This document shows positions 49,256 through 58,346 of a stretch of 64,000 nucleotides of DNA, piece after piece (position 1 is the first letter of the stretch; each line of letters begins with the position of its first letter). The notes below the pieces were generated by a model. That model was not told where the DNA came from. It searched no databases and saw only the letters and a list, made by a program, of their open reading frames with translations. A program made the translations under genes and the position numbers. Where the stretch lies: assembly GCF_000497125.1 (NCBI RefSeq), contig NC_090596.1, positions 620,001 through 684,000 of the forward strand. The letters are read 5' to 3'. The DNA is from Spironucleus salmonicida. Its lineage: Eukaryota.

Positions 49256-51547
49256 TCATACGCCCTCCGTCTCGCTAACTCGACACGCGCTGCACATCTC
49301 TGCACCCCCGCAGCGCCCTCCGTGCTGCGCGTGGCCGCACATGAACACGTGGAAGTCGCTCCCGGTCACAATTTCACCCCCGCAGGCACCGCAGACACAT
49401 CCCTCATCTACCCGTATAAACCGGCGTTCTAGCGCGACCCGGCGTCTCTCCAACGTGGCCTGCGCGAACTTCTGGGACCCGAGTGAGTTTTTGCAGTTCT
49501 CAAGCCGGGCCTGCAGGCCCTCGAAAACAGCTTTTTTGTCCGCATCGCGCACCGGTGCGGCCTGGCCCCGTTTCTAGCGCACGCCGAAGGCCTACGCCAC
49601 TTCCGTTCCGATTTTCTGCACGAAACGCGCCTCCGCTACCGCGATCGGCGCGGTCTCTAAACGGTCCAAAGCGAGCGCCTCCGCCAGCTACGAAATCGCG
49701 CGCAGTTCGTGCAGCTGGTAGCCGAGCTCCGCGCTCTCCAGCGACTCAGGAACGCTCGAAAGCGCGTTCAGAAGGTCGCTTTTCACCTCCTCGTCGCCGC
49801 TGTACTTGATCGTCGAAATATAGTTTTGGAGCATATGCGCGTCGAGCTCCGCCCCGCCGCACATGTTCTTATCGATTAGCATAAGCAAGTTTACGCTTTT
49901 TTAAGACAGAAAATTGCGGTTTTTCAGCGCAAAATTTGCGATTTTCCGCTCTAAATTCAACCCGTTCCGATGCGCAAAAACGCACAGAAACGCCACGAAC
50001 TCGCCGCACTCGCGGAAGGCGCCCAGGAAGTCGATTCCGGCCTCAGCGTTCTGGACCGAAACGCCGCTCCGGAACGCGATTTTCACGAACTCCAGCGGGC
50101 CGATTCCTGCCATTTTGAGCTTCCGCGCCCCCTCCGCGAAGTCATTTTTCTCGCACAACGCGACGCCCCAGCGCCGCAGCACCTCCCGCGGGTCAGAACT
50201 GTAAAACTCAGCCCGCTCGAACTGATATAACTCCAGAAATTGCCTGGAAAAATCGGCGGCGAAATCGACCGAAAACAGCGAATTCCGCTCGGTTCCGCAC
50301 GCGAAAAGCACGTTCTGACAGCCAGAAATTGAATTGAAAAGCTCGATTTAGATGCTTTTTTTACTCATTATATCAGTTAGAATCAGTCCGCTCCCTCCAA
50401 TTTAAGCGATTTTGGAGCCCAGCACGACGAGCTGCGGGCTGGGGAACGCGCTTTTGGGGCCCTCTGAAACGTCGAATTTCGCGAGTTTCTGCTGCACTTT
50501 CAGCGCGAAATCGGCCTCGAAAAGCAGGAAATCGGGCAGCGAGCGTACGCCCTCCGCAGCTCCCAAATACAGCGCCTCCAGCTCCGGAAACTCGCAGTGC
50601 GCGATTTGCGTCGCAAAAACGGTTTTTTCTGTCGAATTTAAAAACGTTATATCAGTTGTTTCTGTCAGAGTCTCCCAGCCGTCTTCTCGAATCAATTTTT
50701 CGAGCTCAGAATCGCTGATTTGGTCGATTTTTGCGCTCGTCCTCTCCTTTTTTTCGAGCGTAAACGCGCAGGTCCAATTGGAGCGGGAAAGCGATAACGC
50801 GTTGGGGGAGTTGACGACGAAGTTGCCGTGGAAGTTCGTCGTGTAGTCCGTGCTGACGGGGCCTCCCCGGAGCAGTACTCCGCCGCGTAGCAGTGCGCGC
50901 TCGTTGCTGGCGAGCAGCGTGTCCGCAACGCAGGCGCCGCGTCCAGAGAGCACTTTGAGCCCATTTTCCGTGCTCAGCAAAATCACGTGCTGCCTGGCAG
51001 ACGCCGCACGCGTGCCAGATACGGTTAGCGGCAGGAAGTCCATAGGCGCATAAGACACGCCCAGTTCTGCGGAGCATGGTGAGCTCCCTGCACGCGCAGC
51101 GAGGCCTGCGAGCTGTTCGGGGATGTCGAACGCCGTAAAACCGATTCCGGTGATCTGCTGGTCCGCGCGGAAGACTAGCCGGGGCTTCCTGATGTGCGCT
51201 GAGAGGTAGTGCACCTCACCAGACTTTGATCCTAGGAGCAGCTCGCCGCCGCTGAAAAATCCGGTCTGGACGCCAGGAAGCTACAGGTCCTGGATATCGC
51301 CGTTGAGGGCAATTTGAAGCGTTTTCGAGGATAAGCAGGCGTATGAGTGCGTGTCTGTAAGGATTAGCAGAAAGTTGGACGATGGGACGATGCCGAATTT
51401 CACCTGCTGGGAGAATGAAGCTGACTGCCTGATGAAAATATAACTGTCGGAAGCCTCAAATAACTGGGCTTCAGTACCATCGTACAGCGCTGTTTGGAGT
51501 AGTTGGTACGCGTCGTTAGGCTGAATTAGGGCTGCAGACTCAATCAT
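49256..51547 (-). CDS. Vps18/Pep3-like HOPS/CORVET core subunit (763 aa)
   Basis: Five same-frame track fragments join into one ORF. A C-terminal coiled coil is followed by a RING-like CGACGGEIVTGSDFHVFMCGHAQH..C...CSAC. Confidence 0.7.
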
Positions 51548-52312
51548 TTTGAGCTTAAACGGTAATGTGTGATTTAAGTATATATAAATGCTTGTTAAAA
51601 AATAATTTTTAAAAAATAAACTTTTATATAATATAATAATGAAATAATTTTAGAATTCAGGAGAAGTTTCTAGATATTTGTCGTTTTAACAGCTGTATAC
51701 TTATTTCAAGCAATGAATATAGCATATAGAGGTGATTTAAAAGTCTGTTAAGTTTAATTTATTACTATGGTTGAGATTCTTGATAAATAATTGATAGAAA
51801 ATTATGAAATGAATAAATTGGGATAATTGGTGTAGTTTTCGCTGTTAATATAAATAATGTCAAGTAAAGATAGTGACATATATAAAATACATTTAATAAT
51901 TATTTAATTAATTAAATAATGAATTATAAGCAGGCAATATGCACTTGATAGTATCTAAAAGGAAATTGTTGTCTAAATACGTAATCATAAGTTAAGGTAC
52001 AGAAAATATTCGTAGTAGTTAGTAAGAATAAACAGCTATTTTATGAATCTGATTAAGTTTATTACGAATAGTAAGCTAAATAATAATTATCATTATTCAG
52101 CTAAACTAATTAATATCTTCTTAATAAATTATAGAATCAAAAATATTAAATCTATTATTTGGAAATTAAAATTTAATGTATGCAATATTTGTAGCATATA
52201 TAAGTAATCCACTAAATGTAAATATATTATTTTATATATAACATTTATAACATAAATTATATATAATTTAGTAATATATAATTTTTCAAACTCTAACATT
52301 CCGCAAAATAAC

Positions 52313-52870
52313 ATGGGTTGCGGTTCATCTCAGACGTAAGATCTAACTAAGTCAGAAAATAACACGAATGCGGAGGGTTTAAATCCAAAAGAATCTGAGG
52401 CTCCTTAGGGAAGATCAGCTCCTCCACCTGCTTAAACTAATGGCATTTCTATTAATATAGGCGAAAAGACTAATACGTAATAAACAGCAAAATTAACCAC
52501 CGAACATATGATGATACCTTCACTAACACTATCTATGCATGGCGGTTAGGCCATGACTGTTGGTTAGGATTTCCTTACAGATGCTTAAGTAATGATTTGT
52601 GCTCCTAGTAAAAATGTTATTAAATTTACAGCTACAGGTGATGGTAAAATAATTTTAGTTGCATTTGCTCCAAGAGTTTTCCCTTTAACATCTATTACTG
52701 AGGTTATAGAATAAGCAGAGGGTGAGGGCGAAGTAACTTTAGAAGTTACGAGCACCAGTATAAATGGATTTATTGTTGCTGTTGGTTCTGAGGGTAGAGA
52801 AATTAGCTTAGCCATTGACGGTTAAGGAAAGCCAATTTTATCACTCCTTCATGTTGAGCCTTTACCATGA
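52313..52870 (+). CDS. protein with MGCGSS dual-acylation N-terminus (185 aa)
   Basis: MGCGSSQTQDLTKSENN..., with a low-complexity linker and then a beta-rich domain. TGA at 52868-52870. Confidence 0.75.
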
Positions 52871-52932
52871 TTAAATTGTGATATTTGTTATTATATACTT
52901 TTAATGATATATTATATTTTTCACTTTACTAA

Positions 52933-53266
52933 ATGTCGAAGTATTCCGTAACTATTGATGAAACTGTATGTCTAAACTTTTTTAATGTAACTTATACTAA
53001 CAAACTAGATGGATAAGAGTATCTTATAAGACTTAAAATTTGAGGAATAAAATAATCATTTGGTAACTAAATCAGACAAGTATTAATTAATTGAAATCAA
53101 ACGCTAACAATAGACCTTTTTATCTAACAGCATGAAAGATAAAAAAGTCAAGAGATCATATATTATTTCTTGTATCTTTGAGGAAGTTGTTCCAGATATA
53201 AAATATTCCATTCCCAATCTCCCTTCATCTAACTGGACTCAGAATCTTTAAGCCTATAATAAATGA
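52933..53266 (+). CDS. small spliced gene, join(52933..52965,53009..53266), 96 aa hypothetical protein
   Basis: The unspliced frame stops at codon 37. Removing the 43-nt intron gives MSKYSVTIDET-MDKSILQDLKFEEQ...QAYNK*. Confidence 0.8.
52966..53008 (+). other. 43-nt spliceosomal intron
   Basis: GTATGT 5' splice site, AT-rich interior, and fused branch point/3' splice site ACTAACAAACTAG. Confidence 0.88.
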
Positions 53267-53283
53267 TATTATATTAATTTGAC

Positions 53284-55080
53284 TCACTTTACAATTATTA
53301 AATTTTTAGACTCTAATACTACCATATTTTTTTTGAAGTATTCTTTTATGTCTGTATCACTAATACCCTTAATAGTTAAATAATTTCTATAAACCCCAGA
53401 ATATGTAAAAAAGTCTGTTTTTTCATAATATACAAGTTTCTTTTAATAACCAAGAAAATTACTACTCCATGGATCTAGTTCTTCGATATATTCTCCAAAC
53501 ATTAAATCATATGCATTATATCCTACACAATAACTGGCATAATGCCCATTTATTGGCTTATAACATATTTCATCTAGCTTTTCGTCATTACAAATATATC
53601 TGGTATCTTCAATTATTAAGACTCCATCAAGGCTATATGACTATATAACTAGATCTTAGTATCTAAATTTGATTAATTCAATTTATTATTCTGTACAAAC
53701 ACAAATGTTACAATATTTTTCATTGTACTTATAAATCACACTATCTGGAATCCATAATTCTGGGATGATTAAAATAACTTATTTAATTATATATTTAACA
53801 GATTTATATATTATATAATTGTCTGCCCATTCTATATAGTTTCTTGTCTCACATAATTCTACTTTTTTCTTACTCTCTTCAAAAATTTCATACACTCGTG
53901 TTTTAGCATCTGGACAGTGTTTTAAAACCTCAAGTACAAAGTTATCTATATTCCCTTTATGAAAACAAACTAGAGGTGTCACATGATTAATTGAATTGTT
54001 AATGTCCTCATCACTAGTGATTTTTCCATTTGATGCGCCTATTAGTAATTACTTATGCTTTTCACTGTTTTTATATTTTATTACATTATATTTTCTTAAA
54101 ATTAAGTCATATATAACTTTCTTCTCGCTTATTAATCTTTGAGATAAATATTTTTAAAAATTAATATCTTTAGCAACAAAATGAACAGAAACCTTACCGG
54201 CTGTATTTAGCACCAGAGCATTTATAGGAAAAACATTCATTGATGTTCCAATTATTAGTATACTTTATGATCTCCGTAATATTGTTTCTAAATGCTATTT
54301 TTTAACTTATATTTCTTCTCCATATAGAACCATATTTGACTTTAATGCACAACCACAGAATTAACACATTGGAACTGCATTATCTAATAAAATACTTTAT
54401 AATAACTATTTATCGAATAAAACCGCATTTTCATTTATTTTTAAATCACTATCAAGCTAAAAAAATTGTCTGTTATGCGAATTCCGTAATAAATGTTAAT
54501 GAAAATTTGAAGTAAAAACTTAATTTTTAATAGATTCAATATCCGTATCTAAATTTCTTAGTTATATATTAAGCTAAAAACCGCTACACATTGAATTTGG
54601 ACAGACTAAATTATTAAAAAACTCACCATGTGCGGGGATATGACGATTTTTTAAATGATTTGTAATACCAGAATAATATTCTAGGTTATCGATATTCTAT
54701 GATATTATTCTATCTATTCTATCTATTTCGCATAGATATGATAAGAAGCAGTGAGAAATTGATGGGATTATTAGTTTATCATGTGTAGAGCTATCAAATT
54801 TCGATAAAACTCTATAATGCACTCTTGGATCATTTAATAAACATTTAACACTAAATGCATACTGCAAAAATGAATCAATTTCCGTAGATTTTTCTGGCCA
54901 TGATTCATACTCAACCTGCATTTTTTAAAAGATAGAATTTGTTGAACGAAACGCTGAAAGACCAGAAGAAACAGATATACCCGCTCCTAAAATTGCTGAG
55001 AAAGTAATTTCTGGATTCATTAAATGATTTAGAAAAATTTTTATTCTTGGAAATTGAGACATGTTCGAAATGAAAATCAT
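53284..55080 (-). CDS. Sir2-family NAD-dependent deacylase with long C-terminal extension (598 aa)
   Basis: Contains GAGISVSSGLSAFRS, ISQNIDNLE, AHG and Cys pairs. Ends AAG TGA. Confidence 0.88.
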
Positions 55081-56505
55081 ATAACATATAATTCATATAT
55101 TATTCCGTTTAGTCAAAATTAACTGAGTAATAATGTTAGGTTTTAATTTGTTTACTAAGTAATCCCTATAAAATATAAAATAAAATAAATATATAGTAAG
55201 ATATGACGATGATGAACTTTCTGTCGCAAAAATACGATAGTTGTTAATTATTTTGTACATTTCAAGAGCAAATACGATATGTATTGTATCTCAAAATTAA
55301 CAATACGATTTAGTTATAACTACGTCAATAGGAATCTAAATAGTAAAATAATATAGCTTTTATTATTATATAAGTAACTAAATCATAGTAGTTATTAAAA
55401 AATAAAAAATCAAGATACTAAATATATAATTTAATAGATAACTTAAATCGACTTATTATAATATTTATCATAATAATCTAAACTCTCTATTTATTAATTT
55501 TTTTAATAAAATGCAAACTAACTAAACTAATAGGGAGACCAAGCCTACAGCTAATGGATATTTGTAACAAATTTTGTTTCATATATTTATATAAATTTAA
55601 AACTCAGTTAACAAGCAAATATAGACTCATTTATAATAATGGAATATTATCTCATTAATATATTACTAATAGTTTTATAAAAAACCAGTTACAGCCAAAT
55701 AATTTAGTAAGTGTACGCAAAAGTTTTATTTCCTATTTTAAATACTATTTATTTTAAGTATAATATCAAAATAAATAATAAGTATTTAGTTTTAATTGAA
55801 AATATGGATAATAATTTTAAAATAAAAACTCATGAATAACGAAAAGATTAAACTCATATTTAATTAAACCACCTAATATACTTTATTTTCAAGCCAATCA
55901 AATAATTTAACTATCAACAGAGTAAAAGTTAACAATAGAAATTAACATATAAATATTTTACAGAATTTTAATATTATCAGCATATTATGAAATATATACT
56001 ATAAATAAGTTCAATATTATACATACACTTTTATATCAATGACTTAATTGATAGATTTATGCAAAAATTATTTTAACTTAGCGTTAGTTGATAACAAGCT
56101 AATCGGATAAACATAACCATAGTAACATCGTTAATATTTCATACAGTATGAGACATCATAATAAATTAGAGAATGAATTTAATTTAAAATAAAAATATTA
56201 AAAATTATTTTTTATATTATTATATTAACATGTTTAACGTATAACTAGTTGTTTGATATTACTTACATGATTTTAGTTATATTAACGATTACAATTTTTA
56301 GTAATATCTGATCATATTAGTGATCATTAGAGAATTTTTATTTATATGTAACTCAAAATATTTTTTATATAACATGGTTTATAATACCACAAACGCTAAT
56401 AATAATATATTTAAGTATTTATATAATTATAAATTATTTAAGTCTTAAAAAATAATATAACTCCAATATTATATATACAAGGATTTCCTAGATTTCTCTT
56501 CTAAA

Positions 56506-57066
56506 ATGGATGTAAATTAGTAAATTTTATAGTAATATAGAATCTATCAGAAGTTTGAATATCCACCACCTATTAAAATAGATATTCCATAATAACTCGA
56601 TGAGGATCATATATACTTCAATCCTCAGACGTCTACGGATTTAGAACTTTACTTGTATCAGATATTCCTTAAAGCATAAGCCGAGTAGAACTAAAAATTA
56701 GAAGATATGAAATAGATTAAATAATTATTATAGTAAGTAGAAGAAATAGAATAAGAAGAATCCTCATCGTCATCTAAATAAAGTTAAATCTCGTAAGAAT
56801 TAAATTTATCAAATGAATTACATAATTCATTTTCAAATACCAAGTCTCTAGTAGATAAAGAAACCGTTATATTTGAGGATATAATAACATTATACCAGAA
56901 TTTTAGAGACAGATATATAATTGAGAAATCTCAATTAAAATAAACGATAATACTCTGGATTTAAATTATACACAAACTAGTTGAGTACGCTACGGTTACA
57001 AAAATATTTACTGATTTCGATAGAATTCAATGCTTGAAAGAGATAGAAATGATAATTTTTAAGTGA
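56506..57066 (+). CDS. hypothetical Gln/Glu-rich protein (186 aa)
   Basis: MDVNQQILQQYRIYQKFEYPPPIK..., ending AAG TGA in frame. Confidence 0.65.
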
Positions 57067-57164
57067 TATTCTCTTTCTGTTTCTACAATCTACCTTTAAC
57101 ACCTTTAACTGAGATTTTTAATTCTTTTCATCAATTCTATTATCTAAAATAAATTTCTCTTATT

Positions 57165-57237
57165 ACCTTTATGGTGTAGTGGTTAGCACATAGCATTTAC
57201 GTTGCTCAGGTCCTGGGTTCAATCCCCAGTAAAGGTA
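57165..57237 (+). tRNA. tRNA-Val(TAC)
   Basis: Cloverleaf with acceptor ACCTTTA/TAAAGGT, D arm GTGT-AGTGGTTA-GCAC, anticodon loop TTTACGT and T arm CTGGG-TTCAATC-CCCAG, followed by a T run. Confidence 0.92.
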
Positions 57238-57296
57238 TTTTATACACATGGATTATTAAACTTATTTTTATACAGTATAATGATAATTTTCAAAAA

Positions 57297-58346
57297 ATGC
57301 CAGAGTTCGAAGAAACCATGAAAAACGCCACAACCGAGCTGCAACACAAGAAGTACCTCCTAGCGAAGCTGAAAAAGTCTTAATCGTACTACTAGGCATA
57401 AATCATTGAAATCCACGAAAAAATAAAACTCTCAAACTACCAGTTTCAAGACGATAACGTCTACGACGCGGAAGACTTCACGAGCAATGATCAGGAACTG
57501 CTAAACTTCCAGATGCTAAACTCCTCCTTCTAGGGCCAGTTACAGGCCGCGAAAGCTAAGTTTTAGGCCCTAAAAACGGAAGTTTAGCAGGTTAAAAACT
57601 CCCCAAAAACGCAGGAAACGAAAGATTTGACTCCAGAAATCGACATTTTGAAGCAGAAAATCACCGACTTAACGTTACAGCAGCACACGCTCCAAACCGA
57701 AGGAAAAGACCTTCTACGACTCTTCAACATCGATCTAGACAGCATTTCCCAGCTAGAAAACGTTCATTTTTAGAAAGAAACGAAAAATCGAATTCAAAAT
57801 GAATTAAATTTTAAAAGTAGCATATCGCTCGAAAACGACAGAATAAGCGCCCTGAAAGAAACGAAGGCGAGCCTGTAGGCAGAAAAAGCTCAGATTTTGA
57901 CAGAAAAAACAGACAATTCTGAGCGAATTTCCACTGAAATCGAGATTTTACGCAGCCAAATCGAAGACGTGAAGACGCAGATTTCGGCCGCGCGGGAATC
58001 AGGAACTGCGGCGGCTGCGGAGCTCTCAGATACTCGGCATTAGCTCGAAGCGAAGGAGGCTGCCGACGCCGAAATTGAAGTCAGGTTACTAGCGTTGGCA
58101 GCGAGAAACGCAGAGCTGGCGCGCGAAAATTAAGCCTCGGCGCGCGATTTGGAGCTAGGGAATTTTGAGATAGCGCGGCAGAACGATCGGCTTGAGGAGC
58201 GGCTCCGGAGCATGCCAAATCTGGGTGAAGAGCAGCTCCTCGCAGAGCTGGACAAATTTTTTACCGACGAACTGAATTCAGCACTTCGTGAAACGTTCGT
58301 AGGAGAGGAATTATTATTATTATATAATAATTAGTAAAAAGTTTGA
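57297..58346 (+). CDS. coiled-coil hypothetical protein (349 aa)
   Basis: MPEFEETMKNATTELQHKK... is in frame with track ORF 58149 and TGA 58344-58346. Confidence 0.72.

What the first reader, a model, noticed from the sequence alone, without database searches (positions are those of the whole stretch)
52933..53266. Rare 43-nt spliceosomal intron in a tiny orphan gene
Seen: GTATGT(52966)...ACTAACAAACTAG(53008). Its removal joins an 11-codon exon in phase 0 to an 85-codon exon and removes the TGA that otherwise ends the frame at codon 37. Known: diplomonads are extremely intron-poor, and their few introns are short, near the 5' end, and have an ACTAAC branch point fused to the 3' splice site. 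It is the only such signal I found in the window, and the host protein is not one I recognise. It may already be among the few described Spironucleus introns.
Basis: partly seen in the sequence, partly recalled or inferred. Interest (0 to 1): 0.75.

Follow-up and report, generated by a model that had tools for sequence, protein, structure and literature searches.

The report
Known fourth intron of Spironucleus salmonicida
The 43-base intron is real in the sequence and probably spliced, but it is already one of the four introns described and annotated in the fish parasite Spironucleus salmonicida, in a small gene with no known relatives.

Summary
GTATGT starts at 52966 and ACTAACAAACTAG ends at 53008. 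This 43-nt piece separates an 11-codon exon (ATG 52933) from an 85-codon exon (53009-53266, TGA stop, TAA/TAG read as Q).

It is not new. A public 96-aa protein equals exon 1 plus exon 2 letter for letter. It is named SS50377_20376, formerly SS50377_17358, of Spironucleus salmonicida. Xu et al. 2014 list SS50377_17358 as the fourth putative intron: same 13-mer motif, a short and weakly expressed N-terminal extension, and a failed RT-PCR. The 2022 reassembly still counts four introns.

New here: contigs of 2 of 4 RNA-like runs go from 52965 straight to 53009, with no microhomology. Their 5' side is only 19 and 18 letters, below the tool's 31-letter rule. Exon 2 scores as coding. The protein has no relative among 1.84 billion representatives. 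Exon 2 starts with its own ATG, so an 85-aa product made without exon 1 remains possible.

Verdict: already known, low interest.

The parts
52871..52932 (+). 62-nt AT-rich spacer between the stop of the upstream gene (TGA 52868-52870) and ATG 52933; presumed promoter. TATATA lies at -41 to -36, TATATTATAT at -25 to -16, and AA directly precedes the ATG.
   Evidence: Sequence printed. The published pattern is a TATA-like AT peak at -60 to -20 and A enrichment before the ATG (PMC3916229 passages). The promoter role is inferred. No contig covers 52882-52946.
52933..52965 (+). Exon 1: ATG plus 10 codons (MSKYSVTIDET), ending in phase 0.
   Evidence: It is identical to residues 1-11 of the public protein P0002. 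Contigs of runs X2 and X4 cover 52947/52948-52965. It is too short for the coding test (score 0.15).
52966..53008 (+). 43-nt intron. The 5' splice site GTATGT is at 52966-52971, extended as GTATGTCTAAAC. The branch-point box ACTAAC is at 52996-53001, with the branch A probably at 53000 (inferred by analogy with the yeast UACUAAC box, recalled). The 3' splice site AG is at 53007-53008. Box and 3' site are fused as ACTAACAAACTAG.
   Evidence: The motif and length match the published S. salmonicida introns. Contig records 9 (X2) and 15 (X4) skip exactly this stretch. There is no microhomology at the junction. The RNA is unstructured: MFE -0.9 kcal/mol, and 173 of 200 shuffles fold at least as well.
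53009..53266 (+). Exon 2: 85 codons, beginning with ATG, plus the TGA stop at 53264-53266. It holds 5 TAA and 1 TAG codons read as Q.
   Evidence: It is identical to residues 12-96 of P0002. Contigs of all 4 runs cover 53009 to 53252-53257. The codon-usage score of 4.37 lies at the 62nd percentile of true coding windows and is reached by 7 of 430 TGA-free wrong-frame windows.

Best explanation
This is the fourth known cis-spliced, U2-type intron of Spironucleus salmonicida. It lies in the hypothetical-protein gene SS50377_17358, renamed SS50377_20376 in the chromosome-scale assembly.

Proposed mechanism:
- Transcription starts in the AT-rich spacer just upstream of ATG 52933 (inferred).
- The reduced diplomonad spliceosome recognises the extended 5' site GTATGT and the fused branch-point/3' site ACTAACAAACTAG. 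The branch A lies about 9 nt before exon 2 (inferred).
- The 43 nt are removed in phase 0. This joins 11 codons to 85 codons and bypasses the TGA at codon 37 (shown by the sequence).
- The result is a 96-aa hydrophilic, lineage-specific protein of unknown biochemical role.

Splicing is supported but not formally shown by transcript contigs. It is probably incomplete. Exon 2 begins with its own ATG, so transcripts that lack exon 1 could yield an 85-aa form.
For: Identity:
- The only hit to the exon-2 translation, out of 5 candidates scored, is a 96-aa public protein, 100% identical.
- Its sequence is MSKYSVTIDET followed by the 85 exon-2 residues.
- Its source names are SS50377_20376 and EST43055.1 SS50377_17358, Spironucleus salmonicida.

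Literature:
- Xu 2014 passages describe four putative introns with the motif ACTAACAAACTAG. [quoted passage not shown]
- Xu 2022 passages report four introns in both assemblies, and a motif search found no new one.
- Hudson 2019 gives the short S. salmonicida introns as 43 nt. In S. vortens, introns lie near the 5' end, are mostly phase 0, and often carry TAAA from position +8. This intron has all of these features.

Transcripts:
- In 2 of 4 RNA-like runs a contig lies on 52947/52948-52965 and continues at 53009-53255, with 0 other letters and 0 gaps.
- In the other 2 runs the contig begins exactly at 53009.
- The junction has 0 nt of microhomology on either side, and the 18- and 19-mers are unique in the window.
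- A template switch on the nearby AAACT repeat would leave the AG behind. The contigs do not have it.
- As a 5'-end control, contigs of the upstream gene start 9-10 nt after its ATG 52313 in 3 of 4 runs. A start 14-15 nt after ATG 52933 is therefore compatible with a transcript that includes that ATG.

Coding: exon 2 scores 4.37 in its frame. The read-through alternative 52904-53008 scores -7.22.
Against: - The 5' side of the two joining contigs is only 19 and 18 letters.
- The runs are only guessed to be RNA, all four belong to one study, and they are contigs rather than reads.
- The original authors' RT-PCR failed for this intron. Hudson 2019 counts three confirmed introns and found no new ones by RNA-seq.
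- The contigs do not reach ATG 52933, so translation of exon 1 is not shown.
- Its extended 5' site, GTATGTCTAAAC, differs from the GTATGTTTAAC reported for the three confirmed introns.
- The AAC-pyrimidine-R motif directly upstream of the branch box has only 2 pyrimidines (AACTTA) instead of 3-4.
- A 96-codon open frame is weak evidence in a genome with a single stop codon.
Confidence: 0.85

Rival explanations
1. The intron is real, but exon 1 is not part of the functional protein. The product would be the 85-aa form starting at ATG 53009. It would come from transcripts that start inside or after the intron, or from spliced transcripts whose 5' end lies downstream of ATG 52933. The intron would then be a 5'-UTR intron, or, in Xu et al.'s words, one 'on its way to be lost'.
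For: - Exon 2 begins exactly with ATG.
- Contigs of 2 of 4 runs begin exactly at 53009, and no contig reaches 52933.
- Xu 2014 report that the N-terminal extension is only weakly expressed.
- A 5'-UTR intron exists in S. vortens Rps15 (outline and passage).
- Exon 1 is too short to score as coding (0.15).
Against: - Exon 1 has an ATG preceded by AA and a TATA-like stretch at -41 to -16, as is usual for this species' start codons.
- The splice is in phase 0 and keeps that ATG in frame.
- Contigs of the upstream control gene also miss the first 9-10 nt after their ATG.
- A contig start exactly at the acceptor is what an assembly-graph fork between two upstream forms would give (inference).
- Both public annotations give the 96-aa form.
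Confidence: 0.22
2. The site is not spliced in vivo. The motif would be a chance or fossil signal. The two joined contigs would be artefacts of assembly or reverse transcription, or would come from an intron-less DNA copy.
For: - RT-PCR failed in the original study.
- The joined contigs fall short of the 31-letter rule, and the runs are not on record as RNA.
- Looser motif patterns are not rarer than chance in the window: 1 hit against 2.84 expected.
Against: - Two separate runs give the same junction at exactly GT...AG with 0 microhomology. Reverse-transcriptase artefacts typically show repeats at the boundaries.
- The 13-mer is an exact match to the species motif, and the length is exactly 43 nt.
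- The strict pattern is expected 0.04 times per window.
- Contig boundaries follow gene boundaries, as expected of RNA.
- The public protein was seen on one contig only.
Confidence: 0.07
3. The transcript is spliced but non-coding. The 96-codon frame would be a by-product of a one-stop-codon code in AT-rich DNA.
For: - No homologue anywhere, no Pfam family and no confident fold: pLDDT 42.9 here, 0.38 in the Atlas model.
- Long spurious ORFs abound around it under table 6.
Against: - The codon-usage score of exon 2 in its frame is 4.37, at the 62nd percentile of 379 true coding windows. Only 7 of 430 TGA-free wrong-frame windows reach it. The five other frames of the same stretch hold 1-3 TGA and score negative.
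- The splice restores the frame from an ATG.
Confidence: 0.1

Closest known systems
The three RT-PCR-confirmed S. salmonicida introns: Rps24 SS50377_16134, Rpl30 SS50377_16979 and unknown protein SS50377_18398 (Xu et al. 2014, PMC3916229)
   Same: Same genome. GT/AG ends with GTATGT. The same fused motif ACTAACAAACTAG. The short ones are 43 nt.
   Different: RT-PCR failed for this one. It only adds 11 residues in front of an ATG. Its extended 5' site is GTATGTCTAAAC rather than GTATGTTTAAC.
Spironucleus vortens cis-introns (Hudson et al. 2019, PMC6679479)
   Same: Short (40-67 nt), near the 5' end, mostly phase 0, with a fused RCTAACAARHTAG, which this 13-mer fits. TAAA from intron position +8. 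An AAC-pyrimidine-tract motif. A 5'-UTR intron occurs in Rps15.
   Different: S. vortens uses GTAAGTY at the 5' site. Its confirmed host genes are mostly ribosomal-protein genes, whereas this host gene is an orphan. No S. vortens counterpart of this protein turned up.
Giardia and Trichomonas vaginalis introns
   Same: Extended 5' site GTATGT(T). A branch-point box fused to the 3' splice site at a fixed short distance, in extremely intron-poor genomes (motifs quoted).
   Different: The 3' motifs are [AC]CT[GA]AC[AC]CACAG in Giardia and ACTAACACACAG in T. vaginalis, not ...AAACTAG. Giardia also has trans-spliced introns, and none were found in S. salmonicida.

Membership tests
Annotated S. salmonicida intron-bearing gene SS50377_17358 / SS50377_20376 | The spliced translation equals the public protein. 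| tested here: met
   P0002 (96 aa) is 100% identical over all 85 exon-2 residues, and its first 11 residues equal the exon-1 translation.
Diplomonad (Spironucleus) short U2-type cis-intron | GT...AG ends with the extended 5' splice site GTATGT. | tested here: met
   GTATGT at 52966-52971 and AG at 53007-53008.
Diplomonad (Spironucleus) short U2-type cis-intron | Branch-point box fused to the 3' splice site: ACTAACAAACTAG. | tested here: met
   Exact 13-mer at 52996-53008, the only match in the window even with up to 2 mismatches. The motif is as printed in PMC3916229.
Diplomonad (Spironucleus) short U2-type cis-intron | Uniform short length (43 nt in S. salmonicida) and no need for an internal stem. 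| tested here: met
   43 nt, matching the Hudson 2019 passage. MFE is -0.9 kcal/mol with z-score +1.05.
Diplomonad (Spironucleus) short U2-type cis-intron | AAC[T/C]3-4R motif directly upstream of the branch point. | tested here: inconclusive
   AACTTA lies directly upstream of ACTAAC and has only 2 pyrimidines. AACTTTTTTA, with 6, lies next to the 5' site.
Diplomonad (Spironucleus) short U2-type cis-intron | Removal from the mature mRNA. | tested here: inconclusive
   Contigs of 2 of 4 RNA-like runs join 52965 to 53009 exactly. The 5' side is 19 and 18 letters, under the tool's 31-letter rule, and the runs are contigs of guessed RNA from one study. The published RT-PCR failed.
Diplomonad (Spironucleus) short U2-type cis-intron | Position near the 5' end of an ORF, with splicing that restores the frame. 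| tested here: met
   The intron follows codon 11 in phase 0. Unspliced, the frame ends at codon 37.

The most novel reading that the evidence does not exclude
The 'unverified' fourth intron is spliced, but only in part of the transcripts. Together with the ATG placed exactly at the acceptor site, this would let one tiny gene give two products: 96 aa when spliced from the upstream start, and 85 aa from transcripts lacking exon 1. That would be regulated or alternative use of an intron in a diplomonad with only four introns, rather than an intron merely decaying.
Probability: 0.2. Interest if true: 0.35.

Novelty: already known. Interest (0 to 1): 0.15.

Why it matters
Diplomonads keep a costly spliceosome for only a few introns, so each intron matters for the question of why splicing persists. 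This one is already catalogued.

The only new point here is modest. Independent transcript contigs suggest that the single S. salmonicida intron that failed RT-PCR is in fact removed. If so, the count of working introns rises from three to four. The ATG at the acceptor site then makes this a small test case for intron loss versus alternative use.

The host protein remains a species-restricted orphan with no inferable biochemical role.

Tried and rejected
- **Whole-genome motif scan:** no genome is held for this window. The other three introns could not be fetched or aligned.
- **Supplements of PMC3916229:** these include Figure S2, the alignment of the four introns. They may show details of this intron that I could not compare.
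- **Sequencing runs:** no RNA holder is listed on record. The four holders are 'RNA?' guesses from one study.
- **Gaps in contig cover:** no contig covers 52882-52946 or 52966-53008. I draw nothing from this on transcript starts or on the unspliced form. Contig depths were not used to rank genes.
- **Protein function:**
  - Pfam: 0 families for the 85-aa form at E up to 0.01.
  - phmmer against 1.84 billion representatives: only the protein itself.
  - PDB sequences: best E-value 0.27, not meaningful.
  - AlphaFold2 single sequence: pLDDT 42.9, so no fold search was run.
  - ESM Atlas: no usable feature hit, and all structure rows had TM under 0.5.
- **Earlier scan notes:** none.
- **Literature:**
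  - The search for the four locus tags returned only Xu 2014.
  - The search for 'four introns', 'fourth intron' and similar terms with the species name brought no paper that verifies this intron (top 15 of 167 seen as a listing).
- **120-aa read-through ORF from ATG 52904:** rejected as the gene model. Its extra part scores -7.22 in the coding test and no contig covers it.
- **Two calls failed on syntax**.

Full report
**What is in the sequence.** Reading 52600-53600 and slicing by coordinates gives three pieces.
- Exon 1 is ATG 52933 to 52965: 33 nt, 11 codons, MSKYSVTIDET.
- A 43-nt piece follows, GTATGTCTAAACTTTTTTAATGTAACTTATACTAACAAACTAG, at 52966-53008.
- Then comes 53009-53266. Under table 6 (TAA/TAG = Q) this is 85 codons plus TGA.

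Read unspliced, the frame of ATG 52933 stops at TGA 53041-53043, codon 37.

Exon 2 itself starts with ATG. Under table 6 its frame stays open through the intron, back to ATG 52904, giving a 120-aa ORF.

**Chance.**
- The strict pattern (GTATGT, 15-45 nt, ACTAAC, 3-8 nt, AG) occurs once in the window. Shuffles expect 0.04, and 4 of 100 shuffles gave at least one match.
A looser version gives the same single hit against 2.84 expected.
- The 13-mer with up to 2 mismatches has one match, the exact one, against 2.26 expected.

Sequence statistics alone are only moderately persuasive. The exact fit to a published species-specific motif is what counts.

**Identity.** The word-based search with the exon-2 translation scored 5 candidates and returned one hit: a 96-aa protein, 100% identical over all 85 residues. 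Its sequence is the 11 exon-1 residues followed by the 85 exon-2 residues. The exact-sequence look-up gives these names and accessions:
- hypothetical protein SS50377_20376 [Spironucleus salmonicida]
- UniRef100_V6LEU8
- EST43055.1 Hypothetical protein SS50377_17358
- KAH0577028.1 and XP_067767801.1

The 85-aa form on its own is not in the collection. The public annotation therefore already splices this intron.

**Literature.**
- **Xu et al. 2014 (PMC3916229, passages only).**
  - They report four putative introns found with RNA-seq. Three were confirmed by RT-PCR: Rps24, Rpl30 and an unknown protein.
  - The legend of their Figure S2 names SS50377_17358 as the gene whose intron failed RT-PCR.
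  - The conserved motif they print, ACTAACAAACTAG, is the 13-mer found here.
- **Xu et al. 2022 (PMC9509377, passages).** They list four introns in both assemblies, and a motif search found no new one.
- **Hudson et al. 2019 (PMC6679479; outline, sections 5 and 7 in full, passages).**
  - They speak of three confirmed S. salmonicida introns and give 43 nt for the short ones.
  - They found no new candidates by RNA-seq.
  - In S. vortens they describe the traits seen here: position near the 5' end, phase 0, TAAA from position +8, and an AAC-pyrimidine motif.
- **Roy 2017 (PMC5224939, passages).** It counts four known cis-introns in this species.

**Transcript evidence obtained here.** Four runs of one study hold the region. 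Their kind is only guessed to be RNA, and they are kept as contigs. Laid on 51900-55300, contig boundaries follow gene boundaries, as expected of RNA. The upstream gene is covered at 52322/52323/52370 to 52870-52881, this gene at 52947/53009 to 53252-53257, and there are scattered pieces on the convergent Sir2-family gene.

- In X2 (record 9) and X4 (record 15) a single contig lies on 52947-52965 or 52948-52965 and continues without a break at 53009-53255, with 0 other letters and 0 gaps. It skips exactly the 43 nt.
Here the 5' side has 19 and 18, and the joint table is empty. This is support, not proof.
- In its favour, the 18- and 19-mers are unique in the window, and the junction has zero microhomology on either side.
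- The AAACT repeat (52961-52965 and 53002-53006) would leave the AG in place if a reverse-transcriptase template switch were responsible. The contigs lack it.
- In X1 and X3 the contig starts exactly at 53009. I read this, by inference, as an assembly fork where two upstream forms diverge. A transcript start there cannot be excluded.
- As a control for 5' ends, contigs of the upstream gene start 9-10 nt after its ATG 52313 in 3 of 4 runs. A start 14-15 nt after ATG 52933 therefore does not argue against a transcript that contains that ATG.

**Is the ORF coding?** With a single stop codon, long open frames are cheap. I trained codon tables on 12 long AT-rich ORFs of the window and scored 85-codon windows with leave-one-gene-out.
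- Exon 2 in its frame scores 4.37. This is at the 62nd percentile of 379 true windows.
- Only 7 of 430 TGA-free wrong-frame windows reach that score.
- The other five frames of the stretch hold 1-3 TGA and score negative.
- The read-through N-terminus (52904-53008) scores -7.22.
- Exon 1 is too short to tell (0.15).

The training ORFs were chosen by length and low GC, not by independent annotation.

**The protein.**
- No Pfam family (85-aa form).
- No relative among 1.84 billion representatives.
- No PDB sequence hit with an E-value better than 0.27.
- The AlphaFold2 model has pLDDT 42.9.
- The ESM Atlas gave no usable look-alike.

It is a species-restricted orphan, and its biochemical role cannot be inferred.

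**Mechanism and rivals.** The best reading is a U2-type cis-intron of the short diplomonad class. It is removed in phase 0 to give a 96-aa product, and splicing is probably partial (confidence 0.85 that the intron is genuine and spliced). The rivals are:
- The functional product is the 85-aa form and exon 1 is untranslated or optional (0.22). This is compatible with a real intron.
- The site is not spliced at all (0.07).
- The transcript is spliced but non-coding (0.10).

**Verdict.** The small added value is independent, though sub-threshold, contig evidence that the one unverified S. salmonicida intron is spliced.

Noticed in passing
window 52313-52870 (+): The upstream neighbour is a 185-aa ORF that starts MGCGSS, an N-terminus resembling acylation motifs (recalled, not tested). 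It has no Pfam family. Its contigs carry much higher word depth than those of its neighbours (about 600-1700 against 8-30). The tool warns that this is a poor measure of expression.
   Followed up: partly
window 53284-55080 (-): A 598-aa Sir2-family ORF (PF02146, E 1.1e-22, residues 32-285) converges on the intron gene. Only 17 nt separate the two stop codons. With poly(A) sites about 14 nt past the stop, as reported for this species, the two 3' ends should overlap.
   Followed up: no
whole window, e.g. 49256-51547 (-) against 53284-55080 (-): Gene GC content differs sharply. Long ORFs range from 18-30% to 55-60% GC side by side. Xu 2022 link higher GC to duplicated regions. Whether the GC-rich genes here are duplicated was not checked.
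   Followed up: no
window 57164-57238 (+): tRNA-Val (anticodon TAC), the only RNA-family match in the window. It lies inside a 438-aa table-6 ORF (57030-58346), so that ORF is probably partly spurious.
   Followed up: no
window 52908-52925 and 52274-52288: The two adjacent promoters share a TATA-like stretch followed by TTTTTCA. This may be chance.
   Followed up: no
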